A stretch of DNA of 64,000 nt from Candidatus Staskawiczbacteria bacterium RIFCSPHIGHO2_01_FULL_39_25 (GCA_001820095.1 MHOO01000004.1:1749-65748); one strand, 5' to 3'. Counted from the stretch's first letter, positions 1,278 to 62,484 are shown. The notes: generated from the sequence alone by a model not told the origin. Numbers and translations: made by a program.

Positions 1278-1379
1278 TATTGCATTAACTTTCTTTAGTA
1301 GAGGAATCGTGCTTGCTGATTGAGCCACAGAGATATTTTCCCAGAACCACGTTTGGATCACATCCCACTTCTCGCGCAT
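1266..1379 (-). CDS. short ORF family 1, copy A (37 aa, [23 protein letters not shown]...)
   Basis: The paralogous copy at 8839..9090 differs mainly at synonymous third positions. The ATG (1379..1377) lies exactly at the junction with element M. No clear promoter or SD of its own. Confidence 0.35.
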
Positions 1380-1517
1380 ATGGAAAAAGACTGTCTTGTA
1401 GACAGTCTTTTTCCATATATTCGATTGGGATTTGAAGGGCGCCGAGTTTCCTTGTTGACTTTGTGTGAGGCGCCTAGGCCGCGAGTCGGAGCGAGCGGAA
1501 ATCCCTTCGCTCGCGCA
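1379..1517. mobile_element. 139-nt hairpin-rich insertion element M, copy 1, bounded by TCGCGCA (1372..1378 and 1511..1517)
   Basis: Close paralog of identical length at 11640..11778. The uninterrupted junction TCGCGCA|TTCTTTC is seen at 11078..11091. It has three internal hairpins, including a 19-bp-arm palindrome at 1378..1418. Confidence 0.6.
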
Positions 1518-1523
1518 TTCTTT

Positions 1524-1576
1524 CAAAATCACCTTTTTAAGGTGATTTTGGTTATTTTGAAATTCTGTGTTATAAT
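1524..1576 (+). promoter_or_regulatory. module R1 copy 1: 12-bp-stem hairpin (1524..1550) plus extended -10 promoter TGtTATAAT (1568..1576)
   Basis: CAAAATCACCTT-ttt-AAGGTGATTTTG is a perfect palindrome. The TGn+TATAAT follows. The same module recurs at 11091..11155. Confidence 0.45.
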
Positions 1577-1582
1577 AAAACT

Positions 1583-1710
1583 GCAAAGGAAAATCCTCTG
1601 GCATATGATTTATCGGTAAAAATAAGGCGATTAAACAAAAAAAGCGATTGGGAGATTTCACCCGCCAAGAGGAACAATCCTTTGAGGTGCAAATCCCAGT
1701 CGCTTTTTGT
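1583..1710 (+). ncRNA. candidate short transcript or 5' leader ending in a terminator-like hairpin
   Basis: It lies downstream of the R1 -10 box. A 12-bp stem (1642..1653 / 1694..1705) encloses about 40 nt and is followed by a T-run. No credible ORF. It sits 50 nt upstream of the kinase gene. Confidence 0.3.
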
Positions 1711-1760
1711 TTGAAAGGTTGAAGTTGCCTTCATAATTATTCATTTAAGTTACAAAAATT

Positions 1761-2648
1761 ATGGAAGAAAAAGTAGGCAATAAAGAAGGCGACCAACCTA
1801 AGGTTTTGAATTTTACTGGAGAGGAATATTTGGAAGTCGGAGAGATTGCCAAACCATTTTGGGAAAAAGGAGTTTCCGAAAATTTGCCAAAGTTTGTTAT
1901 TTATATGGGAGGGGTCGGTTCTGGAAAAACAACTATGCGGAGGCATCATCAGTCAAGCGGCTATGTGCATTTTGATTTTGGAGAAATTTGCATAGCAATG
2001 GAAAAAGGATTTGGTAAAGATAATCCAAAGTTACCGAATTATGAACTCTTGGCTGGCTCTATGATTTTACAAGAAAGCGTAGAAGCCAAAAAGAACATCG
2101 TGATTGAAATTATTGGTGACGATGAAAAACTATTCATTCCTGTCATAAAAAAAATGAAGGAGATTGGGTATGAAACCTCTCTCCAATTTATTGCGTGTAA
2201 ACCCGAAGACGCATATGGGCGTCACTTAAAGGCTGTAGAAGAAGATAAAGATTATATCTCTTCTTTTTATACGCAAGAAGCTACCTTATCGTTCTTTTAC
2301 GAACAACTTCAATTAGGGAAAATGCCCGAAGCCGTAGAAAAGGATAAAAAATACTTAGTAAAAGTTGATGATAACTTTCACCCTATGGATACAGGTGAAG
2401 CATATGACGACAAGACCTATTCATCATTGGAAGAAGCAGTTAAGAGATGTAAAGAAATAACCATTGACAGCCTTATGCATTCCTATAAGAAGGGGATAAA
2501 TGCAAGTGAACTGTTAGAACAATGGATGGCATTCGGAGATGACCCGTTTGTTTATACTGGAGAAGGAGATTTGCCATTCTCTGCAAGAGATTTTGTTACA
2601 GAAGAATTATGCCTCTACATCATCAAAGAAATGGAAAATATAGAATAA
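1761..2648 (+). CDS. P-loop kinase-like protein (zeta-toxin/AAA-type N-domain) with an unknown C-terminal domain
   Basis: Walker A GGVGSGKTT near residue 50, and a hhhhD-type Walker B (IVIEIIGDD). AAATTATG start context. C-terminal 100 aa unassigned. Confidence 0.5.
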   Translation: MEEKVGNKEGDQPKVLNFTGEEYLEVGEIAKPFWEKGVSENLPKFVIYMGGVGSGKTTMRRHHQSSGYVHFDFGEICIAMEKGFGKDNPKLPNYELLAGSMILQESVEAKKNIVIEIIGDDEKLFIPVIKKMKEIGYETSLQFIACKPEDAYGRHLKAVEEDKDYISSFYTQEATLSFFYEQLQLGKMPEAVEKDKKYLVKVDDNFHPMDTGEAYDDKTYSSLEEAVKRCKEITIDSLMHSYKKGINASELLEQWMAFGDDPFVYTGEGDLPFSARDFVTEELCLYIIKEMENIE

Positions 2649-2650
2649 TT

Positions 2651-2873
2651 TGCTATACTCTACTTGGAATAGCCAGAGTTGATATTTTTGGGCATTCGGC
2701 TCAAAACATTGCTGTGTAATAAGTCCGTCATCCGCCTTTGTGCGGTGGATTTGCAAAGTTTGCAAAAGGTGCGGTTAAAAGTGGCGGTGGCTTACGGGTC
2801 TATCAAGAGTGCTACTCCAAAAAAGATTTTATTTTAGAAAAATATTAAAGGCCTTCCATTGGCCTTTTTTTGT
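2651..2873 (+). ncRNA. candidate ORF-less transcript: extended -10 TGcTATACT (2651..2659) to terminator (2848..2873)
   Basis: I found no ATG between about 2666 and 2850. There are internal CCGC..GCGG and TTTGCAAA palindromes. The terminator is AAAGGCC-ttccatt-GGCCTTT plus a T-run. Confidence 0.3.
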
Positions 2874-3051
2874 TTGGAATATGCGAAAATGCGTCTCGGG
2901 CGCGAGAGCGCAACGGAGATACCGCGGAAGGCCAAGGAAATGTATTTGGAAATAGAAATTACAATGAGATAAATAGGTTGAAATTTATGTCAAAAAGGAG
3001 TAAATTAAAGTAATTTCCCATCAAAATCTCCGCTAAAAGTAGGGAATAGTG

Positions 3052-3077
3052 AATACGCAAGACGCCTTGCGTATTCA
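3052..3077. repeat. 26-nt hairpin repeat AATACGCAAGACGCCTTGCGTATTCA, left copy
   Basis: Identical copy at 8816..8841. 10-bp stem with a 4-nt loop. The two copies bracket the R-M gene block. Confidence 0.8.
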
Positions 3078-3147
3078 AAGAGATGAATGGGGGGGTTGGG
3101 TGGTGCGTGGTCGGAGTAAAATCGTCAAAAAATGGTAAAATAGGAAT

Positions 3148-4905
3148 ATGAAAATAAAAGATTTGCCAAAAATTGATCGGCCAAGGGAAAAATTCCTTGA
3201 GAAGGGTTCAGATGCATTGACCAATAGCGAACTTTTGGCTATTTTGCTTGGCAGTGGAATAAAAGGAACGAATGTAAAAGTATTGTCCCAAAAGATCATC
3301 AAGAAATTTGGAGATAACCTGGTAAATGTTTCGGTTGAGGATTTAATGAAAATCTCAGGAATTGGAGAAGCCAAAGCTTTGCAAATCGCGTCCACTATGG
3401 CTTTAGCTAAAAGAATTTTTGATAAACAAAACTCGTTAGATAATTTAATTTTATCCGCGCAGGATGCGATAGATCTTGTATCGGATTTAAGAGATAAAAA
3501 GCAGGAACACCTAATTTGCCTTTATTTAAATGCTCGTAACGCTTTAATAAAAAAAGAGATCATTTCAGTTGGCATATTAGATAAAAGTATTTTTCATCCT
3601 AGGGAAGTTTTTGCTCCAGGACTAGAAATGCGCGCCGCAGGCGTTATCCTTGTTCATAATCATCCTTCTGGCGATCCAAATCCAAGCCAGCAAGACAAAG
3701 AGGTGGCTAAAAGAACCGTTGAGGCTGGAAAATTAATGGGCATCAATGTTATTGATTTTCTCATCATCGCAAAAAATGGCTCGCACAGCTTGCTTGGTGA
3801 TATTAAAAATATCCAATTAATAGATACTGGGTATGTCGCCGAAGGGTTCCAGGCCTCTTTGTTTGATTTGCTTACGGATGCGGACAACTCTCCTTCTGGC
3901 GTGAAAAATTTAGACAAAAATAAAAAGAGCGTGAGCACTTTGCGATTTATGGATTTTTGTGCGGGGATTGGCGGTGGTCGTCTCGGTCTTGAGAATTTAG
4001 GCTTAGAATGTGTCGGATTTTCAGAGATAGATAAGCATTCTGAAAGAACTTATAGAGAATTCTTTGGAGATAGAGAAAAAAATTATGGAGATTTGATGAA
4101 AATCAATCCAGGTGATTTACCCAATTTTGAAGTGATGATCGCCGGCTTTCCGTGCCAAACTTTTTCTGTTATGGGTCAGAGGAAGGGCATGAAGGATGAT
4201 AGGGGGCAGGTTATTTATGGTTTAATTAAAATAATGAAAGGTAAAGATCTGCCCTACTTTATATTAGAAAATGTAAAAGGATTAGTGAATCATAATAATG
4301 GCAACTCATTTAGAGTGATTTTAGATGAGCTAGATAAAGCCGGATATAAAGTTTATCCCAAGGTTTTGAGTAGTTTGAATCATGGCGTGCCGCAAATGAG
4401 AGAAAGAATTTATTTTGTGGGTGTCAGAAAAGACCTTGTTAAAAAAGGCAGAGAATTCAGGTGGCCAGATCCCGTCAAAACTCCTAAGGTGGCAGAGTAT
4501 TTAATTGATACCAGCAAGCTAGAATTTAACGAAAGAAAAAGATCATACGAAACATTTATAAAATTTATAGATAATAAATATAACAAAGGATTATTTAAGG
4601 TGGATGATTTACTAAAGCAAGAATATTTAATACTAGATACTAGGCAGTCAGACTTAAGATTATACAACGATAAAGTGCCAACACTTAGAACGGGCCGACA
4701 TGGTATTTTGTATGTTAAAAATGGTAAATTTAGGAGTTTATCAGGTTTTGAGGCGTTGCTTTTGCAGGGCTTTCCTAAGAGATTAGCAGAGAAGACGAAA
4801 AATAAAATTAATGATATTTATTTATTAAGCCAGGCTGGAAACGCCATGACAGTTAGTACGATTGAGTCTATAGGAAAAAACTTGCTAAATTATATACAAA
4901 GCTAA
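3148..4905 (+). CDS. fusion protein: N-terminal RadC/JAB (JAMM) domain + C-terminal C5-cytosine DNA methyltransferase
   Basis: RadC-like N-terminus with HNHPSGDPNPSQQD. This is followed by the m5C motifs FCAGIGG (I), FPCQTFS (IV), ENVKGL (VI), QMRERIYFVG (VIII) and GNAMTV (X), all in one uninterrupted ORF. Confidence 0.85.
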   Translation: MKIKDLPKIDRPREKFLEKGSDALTNSELLAILLGSGIKGTNVKVLSQKIIKKFGDNLVNVSVEDLMKISGIGEAKALQIASTMALAKRIFDKQNSLDNLILSAQDAIDLVSDLRDKKQEHLICLYLNARNALIKKEIISVGILDKSIFHPREVFAPGLEMRAAGVILVHNHPSGDPNPSQQDKEVAKRTVEAGKLMGINVIDFLIIAKNGSHSLLGDIKNIQLIDTGYVAEGFQASLFDLLTDADNSPSGVKNLDKNKKSVSTLRFMDFCAGIGGGRLGLENLGLECVGFSEIDKHSERTYREFFGDREKNYGDLMKINPGDLPNFEVMIAGFPCQTFSVMGQRKGMKDDRGQVIYGLIKIMKGKDLPYFILENVKGLVNHNNGNSFRVILDELDKAGYKVYPKVLSSLNHGVPQMRERIYFVGVRKDLVKKGREFRWPDPVKTPKVAEYLIDTSKLEFNERKRSYETFIKFIDNKYNKGLFKVDDLLKQEYLILDTRQSDLRLYNDKVPTLRTGRHGILYVKNGKFRSLSGFEALLLQGFPKRLAEKTKNKINDIYLLSQAGNAMTVSTIESIGKNLLNYIQS

Positions 4906-4906
4906 T

Positions 4907-5686
4907 ATGAAACAAATGAAAAAGAAAAATATTCTCGAAATGATTGCTCGCGGTTCTAAAACCGCGAAAGGTGGATTTAAGAATGAAAAGGATGTTATTA
5001 AAAAGTTTAATAATTGGGAAAAAGACGCTATCGCACAAAAATGGCTTGAAATGATGAACTATGATTTAAAGGATATTGAATATGTAAAAGCAACTAAGAT
5101 ACGCGGCCACTATAAGGCTGATATTCAAGTTAGGATTCAAATAGTAATTAAATTAAAATCTCAGTCAGATATACAAAATCTACAAGTAAAATTAGTTAGC
5201 AACCCTCAGGGATTTAATCAGATAGATAAAAGATGGGTTGATAAATACGCAGAAATGTGGAGCATCCCCGTAGATATAGTGAAACTGCTAAAACTTTTTA
5301 CTGGGGAGGCAAAACCAATAAGCAGTAAAATAAAAGATTCAAGAAGAATGCTTTTAACTGAACTTAAAATAGTAGATCAGCAAAAGGTTATTGATTTCTT
5401 CGACCATAATAAAATTCTGGTTATTTCAGATTTATTAAAAGGAAGGGGTGAATTTTCCGCTGATTGGGTTTTAGTGATCTTGAAATTGAAAAAGGAAAGT
5501 AGGTGGGTTTTAAGATCAATTAATGAAGCGATGAATGTTTTTGGAGGTGGCGACGTCAGAATAACGTCGCAGGGAGGTTTGAAAATCGGTAAGATTGGAA
5601 TGCAAAGAAAGGGTGGAGATAATGGGAGAGACAGCGCTAAAATGCTTCAATTTAAAATTAATCCAATTGAGCTCTTCAAGAATTAA
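4907..5686 (+). CDS. putative type II restriction endonuclease partnered with the adjacent m5C methyltransferase
   Basis: It starts 2 nt after the MTase stop and is followed by vsr. K-A-D-I-Q-V block. The C-terminal tail ..AKMLQFK resembles my recollection of the MspI-type tail, which is weak evidence. Confidence 0.5.
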   Translation: MKQMKKKNILEMIARGSKTAKGGFKNEKDVIKKFNNWEKDAIAQKWLEMMNYDLKDIEYVKATKIRGHYKADIQVRIQIVIKLKSQSDIQNLQVKLVSNPQGFNQIDKRWVDKYAEMWSIPVDIVKLLKLFTGEAKPISSKIKDSRRMLLTELKIVDQQKVIDFFDHNKILVISDLLKGRGEFSADWVLVILKLKKESRWVLRSINEAMNVFGGGDVRITSQGGLKIGKIGMQRKGGDNGRDSAKMLQFKINPIELFKN

Positions 5687-5691
5687 GTTTC

Positions 5692-6102
5692 ATGACCGAC
5701 ACTGTTTCCAAAAAGAAACGCAGTGAAATAATGTCCCGCGTTAAAAACAGAGACAGTAAAATAGAGATTCTTTTGAGAAAAAGATTATGGAAAGAGGGCA
5801 TAAGGTATAGAAAGAATGCAAATAAATATTTTGGTAAACCCGATATTGTCCTAAAAAGATATAAGGCAGTTATTTTTGTGGATTCTTGTTTTTGGCATGG
5901 ATGTAAAAAGCATTGTCGCATTCCTTCTATTCGTAAAAAGTATTGGGTAAACAAGATTTCTAGGAATAAAATTAGAGATAAAGAAGTGGGTAAATACTAC
6001 AAAAAAGTCGATTGGAGAATTTTAAGAGTATGGGAGCATGATATTGAGAAAAGTTTTGAAAAATCATTTTTTGAAGTGTTGGAGTTTCTAAAAGGAAAGT
6101 AG
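5692..6102 (+). CDS. vsr: very short patch repair endonuclease
   Basis: RSEIMSRVKNRDSKIE, GKPDIVL, FVDSCFWHGC and N..RD motifs typical of Vsr. It sits in an m5C MTase context. Confidence 0.9.
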   Translation: MTDTVSKKKRSEIMSRVKNRDSKIEILLRKRLWKEGIRYRKNANKYFGKPDIVLKRYKAVIFVDSCFWHGCKKHCRIPSIRKKYWVNKISRNKIRDKEVGKYYKKVDWRILRVWEHDIEKSFEKSFFEVLEFLKGK

Positions 6103-6106
6103 ATTT

Positions 6107-8263
6107 ATGAAAAAGCTGAAAGTAAAGCTAGAGAATTGCTATGGGATTAAAAAGCTAGGGCACAGCTTTGATTTTTCCAAACACAAAACATATTCAATTT
6201 ACGCTTCCAATGGCGTGATGAAAACATCTTTTACAAAGACCTTCTTGAGGCTAAGCGAAGGTAAAATGCCAGAAGAGTTAATTCATGGCTATCCGTCTGA
6301 ATATGAAGTAAAAATCGATGGGCAAACCATAGAGAAAGAGGCAATATTTGTAATTAAATCCTATATCAAAAGTTATCAATCGGGGAATATACATACCTTG
6401 CTAGTTGACGGGAAAAGTCAAAAAGAATACTACGATATCTACTCTGCCATATTGGAAGAAAAGAATAAATTACTGCCTAGGATAAATAAATTATCGGGCG
6501 TCAAGAAGGACGAAATAGAGCCGAAAGTTATTAGAGATTTTCAGAAAGAAAACTTTTTTGATATTTTAAAGGGATTAGAGGTAGATTCTATTAAGGAAGA
6601 TTTTTCAGGTATAAAATACGATGTCATTTTTAATGATGATAGTATTAAATTTCTTGAAAGTCCGGAAGTTTTAAAAAATATAAAAGAATACATAAAGATA
6701 TCTGACAAAATAATAAGCAATTCTAAGTTTTTTAAAAAAGGCACTTTTACTTCAATGAATGCTGACAATGTTGCAACCGCATTAAAAAAGGAAAACTTTT
6801 TTTCGGCAAAGCATGCTGTGAAGATAGATGGTCAGGCTGAGCTAATAGAAAGCGATAAAGATCTTGCTGCAAGGATAGCGACTGAAAGAAAGGAGATATT
6901 AACAAGCCCAGAATTGAAGAAGATAGAGGATGCTATTACCGCGAAGGCGGCAAACAGGTCTTTCAAGATTTTCCTAGAAGAGAATCCTGGTATTTTAAGT
7001 TATCTTGAGGCAGATAGATTGGGAGAACTTAGAAAAAACTTATGGAAGTCTTATTTCAAAAAAGAAAAAGCTTTATATATGGAGTTGATGGATAAATACA
7101 CTAAAGGTAAAAAAAAGTTAAATGAAATAGAGGAAAAAGCAGTTCAGCAAATGTCTATCTGGGACGAGGTGGTTAAAAAGTTTAAAAAAAGATTTTTTGT
7201 TCCATTCAATATAAGTATTGAAAATAGGAGAAGTGCAATAATAGGGAGAGAGTTGCCGAATATTTCTTTTCACTTTGATGATGGGAACTCAAAGCCAAGA
7301 AGTCTTAAAAGAAATGAGTTAGATAGCCTTGAGGCTTTGAGTCACGGAGAAGAAAAAGCTTTATATATTCTAAATATAATTTTTGAAATAGAGTCTAGGA
7401 AACGGGCAGGGCAAAAAACATTACTTGTGATTGATGATATTGCAGACTCATTTGATTATAAAAATAAATACGCCATCGTTGAATACCTTAAAGAAAACTC
7501 AAAGGAAAAAGACTTTTTCCAGATAATTTTGACTCACAATTTTGACTTTTTTAGAACTCTCAGGAGTCGCATTGATGGAGAGTGGGAAAACTATTTAATA
7601 GCACACAAGACTAGTACGGGAATTCTTTTAGAAAGCATTGTGGGTAAAAATATTATAGATCCCTTTGCGGCATGGAAGCTAAAATTAAAAGGTAACGGCA
7701 AAGAATTTATCGCTTCGGTGCCCTTTATTAGGAATTTAATTGAATATCTAGGTGAAGGCAGTGGTGAAAATCGTTACGAAAAATTAACGTCTCTTCTGCA
7801 TATTAAGAAAGGTATACCTGATATTGAAGTACAGGAATTGCATGATATTTTTAACAACACCCTAAATCCCAAAGTACAATTTCAAAAGATAGGAAGACAG
7901 CCAGTAAAGAAGTTAATTTATGATTTAGCTGACAGCATAGAAAAAGATAATTCAGAAACAATAAACTTGGAAAACAAGATTATCTTATCTATTGCCATTA
8001 GATTAGTAGCAGAGGAATTCATGTGGGCCAAAGTAACTGATTCCACTCCAATTAATGGCTCTCAAACAGGCTTATTGTTCGATAGGTTTTTAAAAGATTT
8101 TGAAACCAAAAAAGAAGAGAAGGGTAATATAGAAGTTTTGAGTAAGGTTGTGTTGATTACGCCTGAAAATATACACCTCAACTCTTTTATGTACGAGCCA
8201 ATTTTGGACATGTCTGATTTTGAACTGAAACAGCTATATAGTGAAGTAAAAATTTTAAAATAA
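6107..8263 (+). CDS. ABC/SMC-type (AAA_13-like) ATPase with a degenerate Walker A and an unassigned C-terminal domain
   Basis: IYASNGVMKTSF occupies the place of GxNGSGKT. Signature-like LSHGEEKALYIL, Walker B LLVIDDIADSFD and a central coiled region. The architecture recalls PrrC/RloC-type proteins. Confidence 0.6.
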   Translation: MKKLKVKLENCYGIKKLGHSFDFSKHKTYSIYASNGVMKTSFTKTFLRLSEGKMPEELIHGYPSEYEVKIDGQTIEKEAIFVIKSYIKSYQSGNIHTLLVDGKSQKEYYDIYSAILEEKNKLLPRINKLSGVKKDEIEPKVIRDFQKENFFDILKGLEVDSIKEDFSGIKYDVIFNDDSIKFLESPEVLKNIKEYIKISDKIISNSKFFKKGTFTSMNADNVATALKKENFFSAKHAVKIDGQAELIESDKDLAARIATERKEILTSPELKKIEDAITAKAANRSFKIFLEENPGILSYLEADRLGELRKNLWKSYFKKEKALYMELMDKYTKGKKKLNEIEEKAVQQMSIWDEVVKKFKKRFFVPFNISIENRRSAIIGRELPNISFHFDDGNSKPRSLKRNELDSLEALSHGEEKALYILNIIFEIESRKRAGQKTLLVIDDIADSFDYKNKYAIVEYLKENSKEKDFFQIILTHNFDFFRTLRSRIDGEWENYLIAHKTSTGILLESIVGKNIIDPFAAWKLKLKGNGKEFIASVPFIRNLIEYLGEGSGENRYEKLTSLLHIKKGIPDIEVQELHDIFNNTLNPKVQFQKIGRQPVKKLIYDLADSIEKDNSETINLENKIILSIAIRLVAEEFMWAKVTDSTPINGSQTGLLFDRFLKDFETKKEEKGNIEVLSKVVLITPENIHLNSFMYEPILDMSDFELKQLYSEVKILK

Positions 8264-8270
8264 GAAAACT

Positions 8271-8393
8271 ATGATTCAGCTAATTCTAATTTTCATTATC
8301 GGAGCTATGGTTGGATTTTTGGTGGCGTCGTGGGTTTGGTTTATGAGAAAATGGGGACAGCCACCATTTATTCGGAATGGTAAAGAAAGTTAA
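8271..8393 (+). CDS. small membrane protein (40 aa)
   Basis: MIQLILIFIIGAMVGFLVASWVWFMRKWGQPPF.. forms one TM helix. AAACTATG start context like the core genes. Too short for the ORF track. Confidence 0.35.
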   Translation: MIQLILIFIIGAMVGFLVASWVWFMRKWGQPPFIRNGKES

Positions 8394-8416
8394 GCGCGTT
8401 ATTTGCAAAAAATAAA

Positions 8417-8476
8417 TTTATTAAACTACTTGTGGTGAGTTTATTAAACTACTTGTAGTGAGTTTATTGAACTATG
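8417..8476. repeat. 23-nt tandem direct repeat, about 2.6 copies (TTTATTAAACTACTTGTGGTGAG)
   Basis: Copies at 8417..8439 and 8440..8462 differ by 1 nt. A partial third copy (8463..8476) contains the ATG of the downstream gene. Confidence 0.8.
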
Positions 8477-8812
8477 ACCTATTTATTAATTTTAATCCTT
8501 GGCGTGGTGGTGGCGGTTGCGTTTCTTTTTTGGATTGCTAAAAGGGAATCTAAACAATACGGGACCGGTACTGGCGAAGAGCTGGTGGGTATTTGTGTTT
8601 CGGCCATTGAAACCGCTTCACAAAAAGAGGGGCGCAAGCAAAGGGTGCTGGTCATGCTTCAGGAAAAAAACGGGCTTTCCAATGCTTATATCCGGAAAGT
8701 GTTGGGCGTATCCAGCCGTTCCGTTGTAAACTATATGGACGAACTTGAAAAAGAGGGGAAAGTTGAGCAGATTGGAAAAGTTGGCCAATCCGTAACCTAT
8801 CGGGCAAAATAG
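8474..8812 (+). CDS. membrane-anchored winged-helix (MarR/ArsR-like) DNA-binding protein
   Basis: N-terminal TM helix (LLILILGVVVAVAFLFWI) followed by a wHTH-like segment, LSNAYIRKVLGVSSRSVVNYMDELEKEGKV. Confidence 0.5.
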   Translation: MTYLLILILGVVVAVAFLFWIAKRESKQYGTGTGEELVGICVSAIETASQKEGRKQRVLVMLQEKNGLSNAYIRKVLGVSSRSVVNYMDELEKEGKVEQIGKVGQSVTYRAK

Positions 8813-8815
8813 CCC

Positions 8816-8841
8816 AATACGCAAGACGCCTTGCGTATTCA
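8816..8841. repeat. 26-nt hairpin repeat, right copy
   Basis: Identical to 3052..3077. It starts 4 nt after the stop of the wHTH gene, and its last 3 nt form the minus-strand stop of short ORF family 1 copy B. Confidence 0.8.
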
Positions 8842-9090
8842 TAGGTAGGGGAATCCCGCGCTGGCTGATTGTGCGATTGAGATGTTTTCCCAGAACTATA
8901 GACCTCTTGCAAAATAAGTTTTGACTGCAAATTGTATATTTCGGCCACAAATTCGCTATAATTTTTTACCGTATCCAGAGGATACGCTAAAAAATTCTAT
9001 CAAATTTGCATCTCAAAATCTTCAATTTTCGTTACAAAACTTATTTTGCAAGATGTCTTATGTTTGGACTACATCCCACTTCTCGCGCAA
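8839..9090 (-). pseudogene. short ORF family 1, copy B, split by a MITE-like insertion and carrying TTG instead of ATG
   Basis: LREKWDVVQT | MITE | FWENISIAQSAS.. aligns codon for codon with copy A. Six changes are synonymous and three are conservative. Confidence 0.45.
8897..9060. mobile_element. MITE-like palindromic element, variant TIR (CTTGCAAAATAAGTTTTG), copy M1
   Basis: Absent from the paralogous sequence at 1346..1351. It shares the core AAATTCGCTATAATTTT-hairpin-AAAATTCTATCAAATTT with the copy at 46142..46317. Confidence 0.6.
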
Positions 9091-9185
9091 ACTATTTACA
9101 CTCTATCATAATTATGGTAGAGTGTTTTTAGTTCCCAGACAACTAATCCTCGTAGGCAGCTATGCCTTAAATAGCAGGAGAGAAA

Positions 9186-9650
9186 ATGAACATGAATATG
9201 TCCGATCTTTGTCTTGCGTTTGCTCGCGAGACGAATCAGGATCTCCCAGAAGCCACAGAACAACTTACTAAACTTGTCCAAAGGATCCTTTTCAGTGAGC
9301 CAGATGATGGCCAGCCTTATACAAGAGATGACCTGGAACTTGCAGAATCCTATCGTCGTCTCGTTGCCGTCAGTGAGGCTTTAACCAAGATGGCGACTGA
9401 AGAAGGCGTTAAGGGTGAAGCAAGTAAATTAGTTTTCGAACTTGGGGTGCCCCATGGTGATTGCAGCGTTTCTGGTCTCGCTCGCACCGCGATTAGTATG
9501 GGTAGCCGAATTATCATGGATAGTCCCTGGATTCGCCTAGGTCAAATTGCTGATGATCTAGAGATCGAGGAGCGTCTAGATGTTCCAGCTGAACTTGTCA
9601 AAAGATATTTTCGATCAGGAGAAAATCTTTCATCTAGGGAAACAAAGTAG
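9186..9650 (+). CDS. hypothetical protein (154 aa), higher-GC orphan
   Basis: SD AGGAGA lies 6 nt upstream. GC is visibly higher than in the core genes. A terminator follows. No recognisable motif. Confidence 0.6.
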   Translation: MNMNMSDLCLAFARETNQDLPEATEQLTKLVQRILFSEPDDGQPYTRDDLELAESYRRLVAVSEALTKMATEEGVKGEASKLVFELGVPHGDCSVSGLARTAISMGSRIIMDSPWIRLGQIADDLEIEERLDVPAELVKRYFRSGENLSSRETK

Positions 9651-9664
9651 GATTCTACTTATTC

Positions 9665-9697
9665 GCCAGTTGCGTCGAGCAGCTGGCTCTTTTTTTA
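9665..9697 (+). terminator. intrinsic terminator
   Basis: CCAGTTG-cgtcgag-CAGCTGG followed by a T-run. Confidence 0.6.
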
Positions 9698-9772
9698 TTT
9701 TTCTAAATCTGGAATATAAATATACTCTTTTTCTTCTTGAATTATGGTTCTAACGTTGTTCACGACGTCGCG
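9695..9772 (-). pseudogene. short ORF family 2, copy C1 (RDVVNNVRTIIQEEKEYIYIPDLEK), start codon replaced by TAG
   Basis: It aligns with copies at 10990..11085 and 11542..11640, with many synonymous differences. The codon preceding CGC is TAG. An internal GTG is a possible start. Confidence 0.4.
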
Positions 9773-9775
9773 CTA

Positions 9776-9803
9776 TTGACTTTTTTAGTAAATATAATAT
9801 AGT
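9776..9803 (+). promoter_or_regulatory. candidate promoter TTGACT-16-TATAGT (module R3)
   Basis: -35 at 9776..9781 and -10 at 9798..9803, immediately right of the TCGCGC core and upstream of 9863..10639. Confidence 0.35.
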
Positions 9804-9862
9804 ATAAGTTGAGTAGGCCCTTTGACAGTTAAATTCACTTTTACCAGAGAAAGGATGTGTGT

Positions 9863-10639
9863 ATGCCAGCACCAGAAAAGGTTTATTTCTTCAATTCAAG
9901 CGAACGAGGCTTGTTTGTTGAAATTTACTTTCCTAAAAGGGCGGCTTACTACGGAGCAATCTTTAATGCTCTACGCAAAGGACATGACGAAAATTTGGTC
10001 AAGGAATACTTGAGAACAAGGGTAAAAGACTTAATCAATGAATTTCAGGCTTTTCCCGATTTGTTCAAGCCAAGCCGCTACATTTCACCCAAGTTTAGCC
10101 GCACCCTGCCCTCCATGGACGAAGCTCTTGGAAGGATTGAAATGTATAAATCTCCTTTCACGGGTTGGTCAACCTACTCCGTTGACGGCGTATGGTTTGA
10201 CGAAAGTAAAACCCCAGTAGAACTCATAGAAGAAGCGACCCAAGTGGTTCGTGTGATGTTTCGCTTTGATAATTCGTTTGCCAAACAAGCAGTTGACGAA
10301 GATTGCTCTGATGTTTTGCGGGCTATTCTCTTCTGGATTATTTCTCAGCATGGTCGTCTCTATGACCATAAGGTATGGGGCAAAGAGGAGCAAGCCCAGT
10401 TTATGGCAAGGCACAAGCCTTGGCCGAAAAAGAAAGAACTCTTTGCTAAAAAACACTACGCTGACATTGCAGTTGAAACGGGCAAATGGTTAGACAATCG
10501 GGAAATATTCATCTTTTGCTACCTTGTCAGGAATTTCTGGAAAAGGGTAGTGAGAGAGGAGATGCGGGAAGATGAAATCTGGGTTACGAGCTTGTTCGAC
10601 TTGGTGTTGAACGTGGTCAAGCCCACCAAACCCGTTTAA
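9863..10639 (+). CDS. hypothetical protein (258 aa), higher-GC orphan
   Basis: SD AAAGGA lies 8 nt upstream of the ATG at 9863; the ORF track starts at 9857. Protein-like composition with no recognisable domain. Confidence 0.6.
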   Translation: MPAPEKVYFFNSSERGLFVEIYFPKRAAYYGAIFNALRKGHDENLVKEYLRTRVKDLINEFQAFPDLFKPSRYISPKFSRTLPSMDEALGRIEMYKSPFTGWSTYSVDGVWFDESKTPVELIEEATQVVRVMFRFDNSFAKQAVDEDCSDVLRAILFWIISQHGRLYDHKVWGKEEQAQFMARHKPWPKKKELFAKKHYADIAVETGKWLDNREIFIFCYLVRNFWKRVVREEMREDEIWVTSLFDLVLNVVKPTKPV

Positions 10640-10674
10640 TTGGGTTTCTAACCCTCTCTGAAAGGAGAAAAACT

Positions 10675-10899
10675 ATGCTTTCCAAAGCAACGACTCAACT
10701 AACTGAGGAAGTGTTTGGGTATTTTGGCGAGGAAGATAAGCAAAAGGCAAAAAAAGAACCTGAAGCTCTTCTAATTTCTCTGCTCTTGGTTCTCAAGAGA
10801 GAGTTGCCCGATGTCTCCTCCATGTTAAGTGATGTTGAAGAAGCTCTCTACGAAGATAATCTCAAAAAAGCACGAGAGAGGCTTGTGCAGAGCAAATAA
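10675..10899 (+). CDS. hypothetical small acidic protein (74 aa)
   Basis: SD AAAGGAG upstream. It follows 9863..10639 after 35 nt, and a terminator follows. Confidence 0.55.
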   Translation: MLSKATTQLTEEVFGYFGEEDKQKAKKEPEALLISLLLVLKRELPDVSSMLSDVEEALYEDNLKKARERLVQSK

Positions 10900-10927
10900 A
10901 AACCCTAAAAAGGGTAAAAAAACAACA

Positions 10928-10964
10928 GACCCCAGTCGTCCTTTGGACTTCTGGGGCTTTTTTA
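10928..10964 (+). terminator. intrinsic terminator
   Basis: CCCCAG-15 nt-CTGGGG followed by CTTTTTTATTT. Confidence 0.65.
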
Positions 10965-10989
10965 TTTGCAAGCGGGAAAATTAGATAAA

Positions 10990-11085
10990 TTATACATTTG
11001 TCTTTTCTGGTATCAAATCTGGGATATAAATATATTCATTTTGGCATTCAATTGCAGTTCTAACATTGTTCACGACGTCGCGCAT
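10990..11085 (-). CDS. short ORF family 2, copy C2 (31 aa, MRDVVNNVRTAIECQNEYIYIPDL...)
   Basis: ATG at 11085..11083 inside the TCGCGCAT core. An AAGGTGA SD-like sequence lies within the R1 hairpin 10 nt upstream. Synonymous pattern against C1 and C3. Confidence 0.4.
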   Translation of the reverse strand: MRDVVNNVRTAIECQNEYIYIPDLIPEKTNV

Positions 11086-11090
11086 TCTTT

Positions 11091-11155
11091 CAAAATCACC
11101 TTTTTAAGGTGGTTTTTGTCGGCCAATTGGCGGATTATTTTTAAAGGGGTATAAT
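11091..11155 (+). promoter_or_regulatory. module R1 copy 2: hairpin (11091..11117) plus TATAAT (11150..11155)
   Basis: Homologous to 1524..1576. It lies upstream of the cupin gene. Confidence 0.45.
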
Positions 11156-11210
11156 AAAAATGCAGATTAGAAAGTCGATAGTTAAAATTAAACTCAAAAA
11201 GTGAAAAATA

Positions 11211-11549
11211 ATGGCAAAATTAGAAAGTAAAAAATTTGATTCTCCAGATGAAACTGTGAACATAGGAAGAGGTAAGGTTGAGGTTATTAGTCTAGGCGGT
11301 TTTAAGGTGAGAAAACTTACTTTGCAACCTGGTTGGAGATGGTCGGAAGATGTAAAACCGATGGCTAAGACTGAAAGTTGCAAAATACCACATCTTAATA
11401 TTCACATTTCTGGTAAACTGGGTGTAAAAATGGATGATGGTACCGAACAAGAATTTGGCTCAGGGGACGTTGCATTATTACCACCAGGCCACGATGGGTG
11501 GGTTGTTGGGAATGAACCAGCGATAATAATAGAACAAACCCCTACATAA
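11211..11549 (+). CDS. cupin domain protein
   Basis: Small beta-barrel pattern with G..W..H and GDVALLPPGHDGWVVGNEP, typical of single-domain cupins. Confidence 0.7.
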   Translation: MAKLESKKFDSPDETVNIGRGKVEVISLGGFKVRKLTLQPGWRWSEDVKPMAKTESCKIPHLNIHISGKLGVKMDDGTEQEFGSGDVALLPPGHDGWVVGNEPAIIIEQTPT

Positions 11550-11640
11550 AATTCAAAATCCCGAAAGTTAAATCTGGCATATAAATACACTCATTCTGTT
11601 GGTGTATAATATTTCTAACGTTGTTGACGACGTCGCGCAT
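11542..11640 (-). CDS. short ORF family 2, copy C3 (32 aa, MRDVVNNVRNIIHQQNECIYMPDL...)
   Basis: ATG at 11640..11638 at the junction with element M copy 2. It overlaps the cupin 3' end by 8 nt. Confidence 0.35.
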   Translation of the reverse strand: MRDVVNNVRNIIHQQNECIYMPDLTFGILNFM

Positions 11641-11778
11641 ATGGAAAAAGACTGTCTACAAGACAGTCTTTTTTCATATATCTGATTGGGATTTGAAGGG
11701 CGCCGAGTTCCTTTGTTGACATTGTGTGAGGCGCCCAGGCCGCGAGTCGAAGCGAGCGGAAATCCCCTCGCTCGCGCA
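11640..11778. mobile_element. 139-nt element M, copy 2, bounded by TCGCGCA (11633..11639 and 11772..11778)
   Basis: Same length as 1379..1517. The central 5 nt of the first hairpin are reverse-complemented (TACAA here, TTGTA in copy 1). Confidence 0.6.
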
Positions 11779-11788
11779 CAATAGTACG

Positions 11789-11852
11789 AACAGATCCTTC
11801 GGGGTCTGTTTTGTTTTGTAAATCTGGCATTTTGCTCTGAATTTGCTATAAT
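11789..11852 (+). promoter_or_regulatory. module R2: terminator hairpin (11789..11815), 12-nt partial L2 repeat (11819..11830), extended -10 TGcTATAAT (11844..11852)
   Basis: CAGATCC-ttcg-GGGTCTG plus a T-run. TAAATCTGGCAT repeats 11569..11580. The TGn+TATAAT lies upstream of 11990..12550. Confidence 0.4.
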
Positions 11853-12550: not shown

Positions 12551-12578
12551 AGCTCGGCGATTCCACCGGGCTTTTTTA
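12551..12578 (+). terminator. intrinsic terminator
   Basis: GCTCGG-cgattcca-CCGGGC followed by TTTTTTATTTT. Confidence 0.6.
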
Positions 12579-12585
12579 TTTTCCC

Positions 12586-12870
12586 AGCACTCATCCCTGA
12601 GGACGAGAGCTCCTGCTTTGCAGGAAGCTCTTCGCGTCCCAACCGCTTGCGGCAGGGATGATTGCTGTCCGTAGCCCCGACTACGGTCGGGGCGAAGGAG
12701 AAAACATAAGTCCATCAATCTTGCGAAAGCTACGTTAAATCTTTCGCAAGATTGATACGGTACTCCGACGAAGTCGGAGTATCCCGCGGCTTTGCCGCGG
12801 GGACTTCTATTGTAAGTATTCTCTTTGCGCAACGTCCGAAATAACATCATGGAGTAGCTTTGTGTAAACT
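12586..12870. other. GC-rich hairpin-dense noncoding segment (candidate structured RNA or REP-like cluster)
   Basis: An 8-bp closing helix CATCCCTG/CAGGGATG is followed by four consecutive perfect hairpins with stems of 7, 16, 9 and 8 bp. Two of them share CCGAC..GTCGG. No credible ORF. Confidence 0.4.
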
Positions 12871-12902
12871 AAAAGCCGCTTTTCTTCGGAAAAGCGGCTT
12901 TT
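12871..12902. terminator. bidirectional terminator-like hairpin
   Basis: AAAAGCCGCTTTTC-ttcg-GAAAAGCGGCTTTT has A-runs and T-runs on both sides. Confidence 0.6.
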
Positions 12903-12943: not shown

Positions 12944-12971
12944 TTGACAAGATTTTATGATATGCTATAAT
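12944..12971 (+). promoter_or_regulatory. near-consensus sigma70-type promoter TTGACA-16-TGcTATAAT
   Basis: -35 at 12944..12949 and -10 at 12966..12971 with a TG at -15/-14. It precedes a leader of about 240 nt before the ATG at 13213. Confidence 0.6.
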
Positions 12972-16031: not shown

Positions 16032-16065
16032 TTGACTTGCCTCGCAGAATTTATTAATCTTTAAT

Positions 16066-16240
16066 TACCTTGAATTACGAAATGCACTATTAAAAAACAG
16101 TTTTCGGGTCTTTTTCCCAAATTCGGGTCGAAAATCCGCAATAATTCCAAAACGTAGCTTGCTACGTTTTGGAATTCTATCACATTTTCGCCTTCCAAAT
16201 TTAGAAAAAATACCGCGAAAGCATTTCGTAATCCAAGGTA
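16066..16240. mobile_element. MITE-like palindromic element, copy M2 (175 bp)
   Basis: 20-bp TIRs TACCTTGAATTACGAAATGC / GCATTTCGTAATCCAAGGTA. The internal second-order palindrome carries the central hairpin CCAAAACGTAGC..GCTACGTTTTGG. Confidence 0.7.
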
Positions 16241-16279
16241 AATAGTTCCTTTTTGTACCTTAACAAATGGAGTTGTAGT

Positions 16280-37890: not shown

Positions 37891-38017
37891 AAATTATCCT
37901 ATGAATTACGAATCTTAGCGAATTACGAATACGTTTTAAAATTTTGTACTTTCATTTTATAGGTTAATGAAAATCAAAACAAGTGTTGCTAAAATTTGTG
38001 AGTATGATATTGTTTAG

Positions 38018-38097
38018 TTACCTTGAATTACGAAATGCTTTCATGGGAAAAGACCCGAAACTCGTTTTTTCAAGGTGCATTTCGTAATTCAAAGTAA
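38018..38097. mobile_element. MITE-like element, short copy M3 (80 bp)
   Basis: TIRs TTACCTTGAATTACGAAATGC / GCATTTCGTAATTCAAAGTAA. Internal GAAAAGACCCGAAA is the reverse complement of TTTCGGGTCTTTTC in the long copies. Flanks are TTTAG|..|TTAG. Confidence 0.7.
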
Positions 38098-38120
38098 TTA
38101 GTTCTTTTAGGAGGCAAGCT

Positions 38121-46090: not shown

Positions 46091-46141
46091 TAAGGACATG
46101 CAAACAGATCTATTGATTATGCATAATTTGTGTTATATAAT

Positions 46142-46317
46142 ATCTTTGAATTACGAAATGCCCATTTAAAACGTTTTTTCGGGTCTTTTCCCAGAATTTG
46201 GGCTATAAATTCGCTATAATTTTCAGGCGGACGCGTTGCGTAAGCCTGAAAATTCTATCAAATTTCTATCTCCAAATTCTGGAAAAATACCGCGAAAGCA
46301 TTTCGTAAATCAAAGAT
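46142..46317. mobile_element. MITE-like palindromic element, copy M4 (176 bp)
   Basis: TIRs ATCTTTGAATTACGAAATGC / GCATTTCGTAAATCAAAGAT. Core AAATTCGCTATAATTTT-CAGGCGGACGCGTTGCGTAAGCCTG-AAAATTCTATCAAATTT. Confidence 0.7.
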
Positions 46318-46421
46318 ATTTATTTGATTTTAAGAACAAGTGAATTGGGCCCCCACACCATAAATTCAAAAAATTTTGGTGTAGGGGTGAAGTAGAACGC
46401 TGGAGTGTACATAACTTTGGT

Positions 46422-46632
46422 GGGCTCATAGTTCAGTGGTAGAACGCTGTCTTGCACAGCTTTTATGGGGGGCCCGTAGTTCAGTGGTAGAACGCTGTCC
46501 TGATAAGACAGAGGTCAAAGGTCCGATTCCTTTCGGGCCCACCATAAAAGCTGGAAAATTAACATTTAGAAAAATAAACAGAAAATTTTCCTAAGACAGA
46601 GGTCGAAGGTCCGATTCCTTCTGAGCCCACCA
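46422..46632 (+). tRNA. interrupted tRNA: 5' half 46422..46456 and 3' half 46593..46629 plus CCA, with a 136-nt intervening sequence in the anticodon loop (anticodon GCA/Cys most parsimonious, ambiguous)
   Basis: Acceptor GGGCTCA/TGAGCCC is 7/7 paired. The D arm and anticodon stem CTGTC/GACAG match the inner tRNA. T arm GAAGG-TCCGATT-CCTTC. The leader/trailer helix CATAACTTTGGT/ACCAAAGTTATG is 12 bp. Confidence 0.55.
46470..46544 (+). tRNA. tRNA-Ile(GAU)-like, 72 nt plus encoded CCA, nested inside the interrupted tRNA
   Basis: GGGCCCG-TA-GTTC-AGTGGTA-GAAC-G-CTGTC-CTGATAA-GACAG-AGGTC-AAAGG-TCCGATT-CCTTT-CGGGCCC-A-CCA. The T loop is atypical (C at position 55). Confidence 0.7.
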
Positions 46633-62393: not shown

Positions 62394-62452
62394 ACTTTGA
62401 ATTACAAAATGCTTTCATGGTATTTTTATTGGGCATTTCGTAATTCAAAGTT
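62393..62452. mobile_element. MITE-like element, minimal copy M5 (60 bp)
   Basis: TIRs AACTTTGAATTACAAAATGC / GCATTTCGTAATTCAAAGTT. Flanks are GTAA|..|GTAA. Confidence 0.65.
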
Positions 62453-62484
62453 GTAAGATCTTATTGCAAGCCTTGTCATATACT

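What the first reader, a model, noticed from the sequence alone, without database searches (positions are those of the whole stretch)
1372..1517. A 139-nt hairpin-rich element M is inserted exactly at the TCGCGCA core/start codon, with a 7-bp duplication and a flipped hairpin loop between copies
- **Two copies:** 1379..1517 and 11640..11778 have the same length and are closely similar.
- **Flanking duplication:** each is flanked by TCGCGCA. The empty site TCGCGCA|TTCTTTC is preserved at 11078..11091, so M behaves as an insertion with a 7-bp target duplication.
- **Different hosts:** M sits behind an L1 module in one case and an L2 module in the other.
- **Content:** a 19-bp-arm palindrome flanked by A-runs and T-runs (bidirectional-terminator-like), a GGGCGCC..GGCGCC(C/T) hairpin containing TTGAC, and a GCGAGCGGAA..TTCGCTCGC hairpin.
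- **Loop flip:** the central 5 nt of the first palindrome are TTGTA in one copy and TACAA in the other, the exact reverse complement. The palindrome has therefore been inverted in place.
- **Effect on the short ORFs:** insertion separates them from their R1 5' region while regenerating an ATG.
Basis: seen in the sequence. Interest (0 to 1): 0.65.

Follow-up and report, generated by a model that had tools for sequence, protein, structure and literature searches.

The report
tRNA-Asp-tail module, not a transposon
The repeated 139-base block is real, but its flanking 7-base "duplication" is the last seven bases of a copied tRNA-Asp 3' end, which points to site-specific recombination at a tRNA-derived site in a defence island rather than to a jumping element.

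Summary
**Observation confirmed.** Two 139-nt copies of M (1379-1517 and 11640-11778) are 92% identical. Each is bounded by TCGCGCA, and the 3-nt loop of the first palindrome is reverse-complemented between the copies.

**Interpretation only partly holds.** Homologues of M occur in three other candidate-phyla-radiation (CPR) lineages. In each, M lies directly 3' of tRNA-Asp(GTC).
- The order there is tRNA, then a terminator-like hairpin, then a conserved ~80-nt three-way junction, then a copy of the tRNA 3' end.
- That copy is an 18-24-nt perfect direct repeat in two of the lineages.
- TCGCGCA is the end of that repeat. In locus L052 it is literally the last seven bases of tRNA-Asp.

**In the window.** The 7-mer marks six module junctions in one orientation over 10.4 kb of a defence island; a seventh junction keeps 6/7. 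The window holds no tRNA-Asp and no recombinase gene. About 20 population contigs show no presence/absence variation.

**Best reading (about 0.5).** M is the cargo-less unit of an array built by site-specific recombination at tRNA-Asp 3'-end cores. It is not a transposon with a target duplication.

**Open question.** The junction has compensatory base changes and matches no Rfam family. Its function, as a structured RNA or a folded recombination site, is unknown.

The parts
1298..1371 (+). L1 module. Its last ~26 nt, together with the following core (GTTTGGATCACATCCCACTTC|TCGCGCA), resemble a tRNA-Asp T-arm plus acceptor 3' strand.
   Evidence: Related copy at 8845-8896 plus 9062-9089. Aligned with tRNA-Asp genes. 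Weak BLAST match to the L052 tRNA-Asp 3' end. Unstructured. No tRNA called by ARAGORN or Rfam.
1372..1378 (+). Core TCGCGCA to the left of M copy 1.
   Evidence: Identical to the last 7 nt of tRNA-Asp in L052.
1378..1418 (.). T1 copy 1: palindrome with 19-bp arms and loop TGT, with A5 and T5 tracts inside the arms. It looks like a bidirectional terminator.
   Evidence: (I2). Relatives carry a non-homologous hairpin at the same position.
1427..1505 (+). M body copy 1, a conserved three-way junction. P1 is 1427-1433 with 1499-1505, P2 is 1437-1443 with 1469-1475, and P3 is 1479-1482 with 1495-1498.
   Evidence: RNAalifold consensus. Pair counts on 5 sequences: 92.7% of cells paired, and all four outer P3 pairs show compensatory changes. 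Covariance-model hits at 1e-31 to 1e-39 in relatives.
1499..1517 (+). Tail of copy 1, AAATCCCTTCGCTCGCGCA. It copies a tRNA-Asp 3' end from mid T-loop through the T-stem 3' strand, acceptor 3' strand and discriminator G to CA. It ends in the core at 1511-1517.
   Evidence: 17 of 19 identical to the L052 tRNA-Asp 3' end. The homologous tails in L026 and L031 are perfect repeats of their own tRNA-Asp ends.
1518..1552 (+). R1: terminator-like hairpin (1523-1551). A promoter-like TATAAT box follows.
   Evidence: (D17). Same module at 11085-11119.
8845..9089 (+). L1' ending in core 9083-9089. It is interrupted at 8900-9058 by a foldback element with terminal inverted repeats. The R3 terminator hairpin follows at 9098-9125.
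9704..9773 (+). L2 copy C, ending in a partial core (TCGCGC then T). A promoter-like site follows directly at 9776-9803.
   Evidence: (D8).
11014..11119 (+). L2 copy D, core 11078-11084 and R1 joined directly.
   Evidence: D8, D17.
11569..11639 (+). L2 copy E plus core 11633-11639, to the left of M copy 2.
   Evidence: D8.
11639..11679 (.). T1 copy 2: the same palindrome with loop ACA (flipped) and one G.T mismatch in the arms.
   Evidence: (I2).
11688..11778 (+). M body copy 2 (three-way junction, 11688-11766) plus the tRNA-Asp-like tail 11760-11778, which ends in core 11772-11778.
11779..11815 (+). R2: terminator hairpin at 11788-11811. GTACGAA lies 5 nt after the core, at the same offset as in the flank after M in L026.
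   Evidence: Sequences read.

Best explanation
**What M is.** M is a three-part module:
- T1, a terminator-like palindrome;
- an ~80-nt conserved three-way junction (P1, P2, P3);
- a 19-nt copy of the 3' end of tRNA-Asp.

**Where it normally sits.** In related CPR bacteria M lies immediately downstream of tRNA-Asp(GTC). [quoted passage not shown] This is the classical attL/attR footprint of site-specific integration into a tRNA gene.

**What the 7-mer is.** The window's 'TCGCGCA duplication' is the last 7 nt of that repeat: four acceptor-stem bases, the discriminator G, and CA.

**What happened in this genome.**
- The 7-mer marks the junctions between modules of a defence island, all in one orientation.
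- I read the region from about 1 to 11.8 kb as a tandem array of cassettes accreted by a site-specific recombinase acting at tRNA-Asp-3'-end cores. That recombinase is not encoded in the window.
- Cassette sizes range from 139 nt to 7.6 kb. Most have a terminator or promoter at the left end and an L module at the right end.
- M is the cargo-less unit of this array.
- Copy 2 with R2 is probably the ancestral boundary distal to the tRNA.
- Copy 1 is a paralogue whose tail now carries the restriction-modification island. Either it was moved by recombination between cores, or it is a decayed duplicate of a tRNA-Asp-plus-M locus.

**The loop flip.** It is an ordinary inversion of a hairpin loop between perfect inverted arms.

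**Shown versus inferred.**
- Shown: the anatomy, the tRNA-Asp linkage, the repeats and the structural covariation.
- Inferred: the recombination mechanism, the direction of events, and any function of the junction.
For: **Linkage to tRNA-Asp**
- M homologues lie directly 3' of tRNA-Asp(GTC) in L025/L026, L031 (a Giovannonibacteria genome) and L052.
- The tail is identical to the tRNA 3' end for 18 nt in L026 and for at least 22 nt in L031.
- In L026 the identity starts at AAAT of the T-loop.
- The L052 tRNA-Asp ends in ...CGCTCGCGCA, so its terminal 7-mer is TCGCGCA.

**Evidence of repeated events at that site**
- A second, decayed M-like unit with a decayed tail follows in tandem in L031.

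**Evidence from the window**
- Copy homology ends exactly at the cores on both sides.
- L1, L2, R1, R2, R3 and M are joined in different combinations, always at the core.
- There are six exact cores plus one 6/7 core on the + strand within 1372-11778. The whole 64 kb has 16 on both strands against 5 expected.
- The gene content fits a defence island: HinP1I-like restriction-modification, Vsr, PDC-S46, a zeta-like toxin.
- Promoter-like and terminator-like sites flank each small unit.

**Signs of horizontal history or unusual constraint**
- M bodies of L026 and L052 are 93% identical. Their tRNA-Asp genes are only about 76% identical (my count on the alignment).
- L026 and L031 show the reverse: tRNA about 88%, M 79%.

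**Known precedent**
- Tandem islands bounded by a 20-bp repeat of the tmRNA gene's 3' end, with insertion in the T-loop and some islands lacking an integrase, are described in Dehalococcoides (PMC3146451).
- Cis-mobilizable elements and accretion are reviewed in PMC5704250.
Against: - No integrase or recombinase gene lies in the window or in the 2.5-3.8 kb available upstream.
- No tRNA-Asp lies in the window or in the held flanks.
- All ~20 population contigs are collinear. There is no empty or occupied variant and no circular junction.
- A ~140-bp segment is very short for excision as double-stranded DNA.
- M sits at the same locus in all three other lineages, which also fits plain vertical inheritance.
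- The compensatory changes in P3 and the invariant unpaired blocks suggest a folded RNA or single-stranded DNA under selection. A simple protein-bound att arm does not need that.
- L2 shares only 7-8 nt with the tRNA end.
- In L052 the repeat is imperfect and M's right edge is not TCGCGCA.
- Only four lineages are known, because the public scans were exhausted.
Confidence: 0.5

Rival explanations
1. The M body is a vertically inherited, functional structured RNA encoded just after tRNA-Asp in a group of CPR bacteria. Its tail mimics the tRNA-Asp 3' end and its 5' strand is antisense to the T-loop. The two window copies would be by-products of duplication of the tRNA-Asp neighbourhood. This can coexist with the recombination model.
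For: - The three-way junction has 92.7% of cells paired, against 36-60% when partners are slid.
- All four outer P3 pairs change compensatorily.
- Blocks of 22 and 14 nt are invariant in five sequences, while the neighbouring hairpins T1 and T2 are not homologous.
- G.U pairs fit only the tRNA-sense strand.
- The position after tRNA-Asp is fixed in three lineages.
Against: - There is no room for a promoter between T1 and P1, and no conserved -10 box (sequences).
- A strong terminator-like hairpin separates M from the tRNA.
- No Rfam family matches.
- The window copies are not next to any tRNA, and their edges coincide exactly with the cores.
- The M tree and the tRNA tree disagree.
Confidence: 0.25
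2. One reading: M is a MITE-like non-autonomous transposable element that inserts at TCGCGCA and duplicates those 7 bp.
For: - Identical 7-mers flank both copies.
- The neighbours differ on both sides.
- An L2-core-R1 junction without M exists.
Against: - M has no terminal inverted repeats.
- The right-hand 7-mer is part of a 19-nt tRNA-derived tail inside M.
- In the other genomes there is one copy, always after tRNA-Asp, with 18 to at least 22-nt or imperfect repeats.
- The same 7-mer also joins modules that lack M (9083, 11078).
- The window holds two copies only, with no polymorphism.
- No copies occur in the phage, plasmid or IMG/VR collections.
- The 'empty site' is a mosaic of two different loci.
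Confidence: 0.06
3. M is an ordinary segmental duplication. A piece of the tRNA-Asp downstream region was copied once by illegitimate or microhomology-mediated recombination, with no dedicated recombinase and no function.
For: - The genome holds only two copies, 8% diverged.
- The population is clonal at both sites.
- No recombinase was seen.
Against: - Both edges of the duplicated block fall exactly on the same 7-mer.
- That 7-mer also bounds at least four other module junctions in the same orientation.
- L and R modules are shuffled at it.
- The M body is conserved across lineages more strongly than its flanks.
Confidence: 0.12

Closest known systems
Tandem genomic islands integrated at tRNA or tmRNA genes, such as the Dehalococcoides ssrA islands (PMC3146451)
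   Same: - Several segments lie in one orientation, each bounded by a direct repeat of the 3' end of a tRNA-like gene.
- The repeat begins in the T-loop.
- A conserved element-specific sequence lies just upstream of each repeat.
- Some units lack integration genes.
- The cargo is accessory or defence genes.
   Different: - No tRNA-Asp and no integrase are seen in the window.
- The repeat is reduced to 7 nt at most junctions.
- Units are tiny (139 nt to 1.3 kb, one of 7.6 kb).
- One unit type (M) is cargo-less and carries a conserved three-way junction.
Cis-mobilizable elements (CIMEs) and accretion of integrative elements (reviewed in PMC5704250)
   Same: These are non-autonomous segments flanked by att sites. 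They can be moved only by a recombinase supplied in trans, and they accumulate in tandem next to the primary site.
   Different: - CIMEs are kilobases long and derive from known integrative conjugative or mobilizable elements (ICEs/IMEs).
- M is 139 nt, and no parent element is known.
Integron gene cassettes and attC sites (my own knowledge)
   Same: - Arrays of short, mostly single-gene units are separated by a repeated 7-bp core.
- ORF-less cassettes exist.
- Recombination sites can act as folded single strands, some with branched tips.
   Different: - There is no IntI gene.
- The core is not GTTRRRY and has no inverse core.
- L1 and L2 are unstructured.
- The units carry their own promoter-like and terminator-like sites.
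- The core derives from a tRNA.
MITEs and the palindrome-associated elements of the IS200/IS605 family (my own knowledge)
   Same: These are small, hairpin-rich, non-coding repeats with a sequence-specific insertion point.
   Different: - M has no terminal inverted repeats.
- The left hairpin is not conserved between lineages.
- There is one copy per genome at a fixed locus elsewhere.
- The flanking repeat is tRNA sequence.
- A genuine foldback element with terminal inverted repeats does occur in this window (8900-9058), and it looks quite different.
Small hairpin-loop inversions between inverted repeats, well known in plastid non-coding DNA (my own knowledge)
   Same: The loop is exactly reverse-complemented between otherwise identical arms.
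   Different: Here only 3 nt are flipped, and it happened between two paralogous copies in a bacterial genome.

Membership tests
MITE / transposon with target-site duplication | Terminal inverted repeats at the two ends of the element | tested here: not met
   The left end is TATGGAAAAAG and the right end is CGCTCGCGCA. The only long inverted repeat is the internal T1 palindrome.
MITE / transposon with target-site duplication | The duplication is generated from the target, so flanks are host sequence rather than part of the element | tested here: not met
   The right 7-mer is the end of a 19-nt tRNA-Asp-like tail conserved within M in all lineages. Repeats in relatives are 18 to at least 22 nt, or imperfect.
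MITE / transposon with target-site duplication | Many dispersed copies, with presence/absence variation | tested here: not met
   There are two copies in 64 kb and one per locus in relatives. There is no variation in about 20 population contigs. The rest of the genome could not be read.
tRNA-gene-targeted integrative element (attL/attR footprint) | Direct repeat identical to the 3' part of a tRNA gene, one copy inside the intact tRNA | tested here: met
   L026 has 18 nt and L031 at least 22 nt, both perfect. L052 is imperfect. In the window itself only the tails and the 7-mers are present, with no tRNA-Asp.
tRNA-gene-targeted integrative element (attL/attR footprint) | A site-specific recombinase gene in or next to the element | tested here: not met
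   Pfam scans of the window's ORFs and the gene tables of the flanking loci show none.
tRNA-gene-targeted integrative element (attL/attR footprint) | Excision or integration products: circular junction, empty site | not testable with these tools
   This needs raw reads or an experiment. The assembled contigs are all collinear.
Integron cassette array | IntI integrase with attI, and attC hairpins bearing RYYYAAC/GTTRRRY | tested here: not met
   No integrase is present. L1 and L2 fold no better than shuffles, with z-scores of about 0 to +1. The core is TCGCGCA.
Known RNA family (Rfam 15) | Covariance-model match at or near the gathering score | tested here: not met
   Only tRNAs match. Nothing matches over M in the window, L026 or L031.
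Structured RNA or folded single-strand element (generic) | Base pairs kept through compensatory changes | tested here: met
   The four outer P3 pairs change on both sides with no breakage. P1 and P2 never vary, so they are uninformative. Only 5 sequences from 4 lineages were available.

The most novel reading that the evidence does not exclude
The three-way junction plus tRNA-Asp tail is a folded recombination site, a portable attB or attC-like site. It would belong to a previously undescribed, integron-like cassette system of CPR bacteria. That system would use the 3' end of tRNA-Asp as its primary site and stack very small, self-promoted defence or accessory cassettes behind it.
Probability: 0.15. 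Interest if true: 0.8.

Novelty: new variant of a known kind. Interest (0 to 1): 0.45.

Why it matters
- **CPR genome plasticity.** If the array was built by recombination at tRNA-Asp-end cores, it gives a concrete handle on how the very small CPR genomes gain and shuffle defence genes. It also predicts a recombinase and a primary site that can be looked for.
- **A new conserved element.** The ~80-nt junction is more conserved than the tRNA next to it in one lineage pair, and it matches no known RNA family. It is therefore a candidate new structured RNA or folded recombination site.
- **For the scan itself.** A short "target-site duplication" next to a hairpin-rich repeat can be the tail of a tRNA-derived att repeat.

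Tried and rejected
**Searches that failed or returned only chance hits**
- The 22-mer TTGGGATTTGAAGGGCGCCGAG found nothing in genome or metagenome contigs. It misses relatives by one base. The window's own population contigs also did not come up, although L006 holds the 22-mer, so those collections appear not to hold or to mask them.
- Two protein searches used concatenated six-frame translations of M. Both gave 8000 candidates and no hits, so they were wasted.
- A mixed pattern and a 19-mer worked. The 22 hits in GC-rich genomes and the 2 viral hits are chance coding matches to the peptide DLKGAE.
- The antisense ORF through M found one extra lineage.
- M, L1 and L2 patterns found nothing in the phage, plasmid or IMG/VR collections.

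**Hypotheses considered and dropped**
- *Known RNA:* Rfam matched only tRNAs.
- *Diversity-generating retroelement:* the differences between copies are not adenine-specific.
- *L2 peptide as a HEPN or other domain:* no Pfam hit.
- *L1 as a whole tRNA pseudogene:* only the 3' ~26 nt resemble tRNA-Asp.
- *attC-like folding of L1 and L2:* none.
- *dif/Xer site:* only a GCGCATAA resemblance, with no XerD arm.
- *Promoter inside M:* the TTGAC is not conserved in relatives.

**Contig extensions**
- Extending past the window's 3' end found only housekeeping genes and no tRNA or M.
- Extending upstream was blocked by contig ends.

Full report
**1.
- The segments 1372-1517 and 11633-11778 are equal in length and 91.8% identical.
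- Each consists of TCGCGCA, 132 nt, and TCGCGCA again. Similarity between the copies stops exactly at the outer edges of the 7-mers.
- To the left lie unrelated modules: L1 (1298-1371) and L2 (11569-11632).
- To the right lie unrelated terminator-like hairpins: R1 (1518-1552) and R2 (11779-11815).
- L2-TCGCGCA-R1 occurs without M at 11014-11119.
- TCGCGCA occurs 16 times against 5.0 expected. Six exact copies and one 6/7 copy (9768) sit at module junctions on the + strand between 1372 and 11778.
- The first palindrome has 19-bp arms. Its 3-nt loop is TGT in copy 1 and ACA in copy 2. The two palindromes are 98% reverse-complementary but about 90% directly identical (I2). Three independent substitutions giving the exact complement is far less likely than a flip, so the loop inversion is real.
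- The window holds only these two copies.

**2. Source and population.**
- The window is 100% identical to contig MHPB01000020.1 of GCA_001820275.1, from position 2539. This is a genome assembled from Rifle aquifer metagenomes.
- That it is a candidate-phyla-radiation (CPR) bacterium is inferred from the source and from its relatives. I did not verify it.
- About 20 contigs of the same population, from several samples, are 99.5-100% identical and collinear over both M sites. There is no occupied-versus-empty polymorphism.

**3. Relatives change the picture.**
- Degenerate pattern scans and an antisense-ORF search found M in three other lineages:
  - L025/L026, two metagenome contigs;
  - L031, Candidatus Giovannonibacteria RIFCSPHIGHO2_02_FULL_44_11;
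  - L052.
- In all three, M lies immediately 3' of tRNA-Asp(GTC) on the same strand.
- The order is always the same: tRNA-Asp, then a palindromic A-tract/T-tract hairpin (T1, not homologous between lineages), then a conserved body, then a copy of the tRNA's 3' end, then a second terminator-like hairpin.
- In L026 the tail AAATCCCATCGCCCGCGC repeats the tRNA end for 18 nt.
- In L031 the identity runs at least 22 nt, ending ...ATCGGCCGCGCATAAAA.
- In L052 the tRNA ends in ...AAATCCCGCCGCTCGCGCA, so TCGCGCA is literally its last seven bases. There M's tail (AAATCCCCTTGCTCGC|CGCC) is an imperfect repeat that resembles the window's tails more than its own tRNA.
- The window's tails (AAATCCC[T/C]TCGCTCGCGCA, at 1499-1517 and 11760-11778) are therefore tRNA-Asp 3'-end copies.
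- The "7-bp duplication" is the terminal part of that copy: four acceptor bases, discriminator G, and CA.

**4. Anatomy of the conserved body.**
- Five sequences from four lineages align with invariant blocks of 22 nt (GGGATTTGAAGGGCGCCGAGTT) and 14 nt (TGTGTGAGGCGCC).
- They fold into a three-way junction:
  - P1 is GGGATTT with AAATCCC. The 3' strand is the T-loop/T-stem part of the tail, and the 5' strand is antisense to the T-loop.
  - P2 is GGGCGCC with GGCGCCY and has a 25-nt loop.
  - P3 is the third hairpin.
- 92.7% of cells are paired, against 36-60% when partners are slid.
- The four outer P3 pairs all change compensatorily: CCGC/GCGG, TTGC/GCAA, CTTT/AAAG. P1 and P2 never vary.
- G.U pairs fit only the tRNA-sense strand.
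- No Rfam family matches.
- L031 carries a second, decayed M-like unit with a decayed tRNA-like tail in tandem.

**5. The window's array.**
- L1's last ~26 nt plus the core (GTTTGGATCACATCCCACTTCTCGCGCA) resemble a tRNA-Asp T-arm plus acceptor strand. L2 shares only 7-8 nt with it.
- Neither L1 nor L2 is structured.
- Reading from core to core gives these segments:

| Segment | Length | Content |
|---|---|---|
| 1379-1517 | 139 nt | M |
| 1518-9089 | 7.6 kb | R1, zeta-like toxin, RadC-methylase, HinP1I-like endonuclease, Vsr, PDC-S46, HTH protein, L1' |
| 9090-9773 | 0.68 kb | — |
| 9776-11084 | 1.3 kb | — |
| 11085-11639 | 0.55 kb | R1, promoter-like site, cupin gene, L2 |
| 11640-11778 | 139 nt | M |

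- R2 follows the last segment.
- Left ends (R1 twice) and right ends (L2 three times, L1 twice) recur in different combinations. That is what site-specific recombination at a shared core produces.
- R2 shares GTACGAA, at the same offset after the core, with the native flank in L026. Copy 2 plus R2 therefore looks like the ancestral tRNA-distal boundary rather than an insertion into L2-R2.

**6. Best explanation and its limits.**
- I favour, at about 0.5, a tandem array accreted by a site-specific recombinase acting on tRNA-Asp-3'-end cores, with M as the cargo-less unit.
- This resembles the tandem tmRNA-gene islands of Dehalococcoides. Those have a 20-bp repeat, insertion in the T-loop, and some units without integration genes (PMC3146451). 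It also resembles cis-mobilizable elements and accretion (PMC5704250).
- Some history beyond vertical descent is supported. The M bodies of L026 and L052 are 93% identical, while their tRNA-Asp genes are about 76% identical. L026 and L031 show the reverse. These are short sequences, so this is weak evidence.
- Against the model:
  - there is no recombinase and no tRNA-Asp in the window or its reachable flanks;
  - there is no polymorphism;
  - a 140-bp unit is awkward for double-stranded excision;
  - the covariation points to a folded RNA or single strand that a plain att arm does not require.
- A vertically inherited RNA of unknown function (about 0.25) is not excluded and can coexist with the recombination model.
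- Transposition with a target duplication is unlikely (about 0.06).
- Plain duplication does not explain edges that fall on a core shared by other junctions (about 0.12).

**7. The short ORFs.**
- The L1 ORF is the antisense translation of the tRNA-like end.
- The three L2 copies differ most often at third codon positions, 25 of 46 differences in non-independent pairwise comparisons. L2 may therefore be, or have been, coding. It has no Pfam match, and copy C lacks the ATG.
- "Regeneration" of a start codon needs only that the base after the core is not G.

**8. Novelty.**
- tRNA-end repeats and island accretion are well known.
- What I found no description of is the 139-nt cargo-less unit with a conserved, covarying junction fixed behind tRNA-Asp in CPR genomes, together with the very small self-promoted cassettes.
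- I rate this a new variant of a known kind, with moderate interest.

Noticed in passing
window 46421-46632: A nested tRNA. An outer tRNA-like gene has its 5' half at 46421-46455 and its 3' half at 46592-46632. Its acceptor strands GGGCTCA/TGAGCCC match each other. It is split in the anticodon loop by about 135 nt that contain a complete tRNA-Ile(GAT) at 46470-46544. That inner tRNA is flanked by a 12-bp extended stem, CAGCTTTTATGG / CCATAAAAGCTG. ARAGORN reports only the inner gene.
   Followed up: partly
window 8900-9058, also 16055-16244 and 46131-46313: Foldback elements of about 160-190 nt with terminal inverted repeats, resembling MITEs. The one at 8900-9058 is 78% self-complementary and interrupts L1'. 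Its centre (AAATTCGCTATAAT, a hairpin, then AAAATTCTATCAAATTT) is related to the copy at 46196-46277. Related terminal motifs (TTGAATTACGAAATGC) recur at 38008-38115 and 62394-62471.
   Followed up: partly
window 12575-12900: A GC-rich non-coding stretch of about 330 nt, packed with hairpins, lies between the terminator of the 186-aa gene and the strongest promoter-like site in the region (12944-12971). It has no Rfam match.
   Followed up: no
window 3148-6102: A RadC-JAB domain is fused to a C5 cytosine methylase. R.HinP1I-like and Vsr genes follow. The presumed recognition site GCGC lies inside the TCGCGCA core, which is probably coincidence.
   Followed up: no
window 11811-11822: Directly after the R2 terminator, TAAATCTGGCAT repeats the first 12 nt of L2 copy E (11569-11580). 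The left edge of L2 (TAAATCTGG) may therefore be a second junction motif.
   Followed up: no
L031 2240-2870 (- strand): A free-standing LAGLIDADG-type homing endonuclease ORF, with GFLAADG and GYFDGDGS motifs, lies between tRNA-Met and tRNA-Asp, just upstream of the M locus. This is read from the sequence only. The record has a run of N inside it.
   Followed up: no
L026 4270-4460: About 100 nt downstream of M and its terminator lies a ~190-nt non-coding stretch. Its closing stem, GGAGTAG...GGTTACTCC, is followed by a terminator. It has no convincing Rfam match and may be another small RNA.
   Followed up: no
window 39202-43359: A 1385-aa ORF contains about seven tandem ~270-nt repeats of 63-86% identity, probably Ig-like surface domains.
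   Followed up: no
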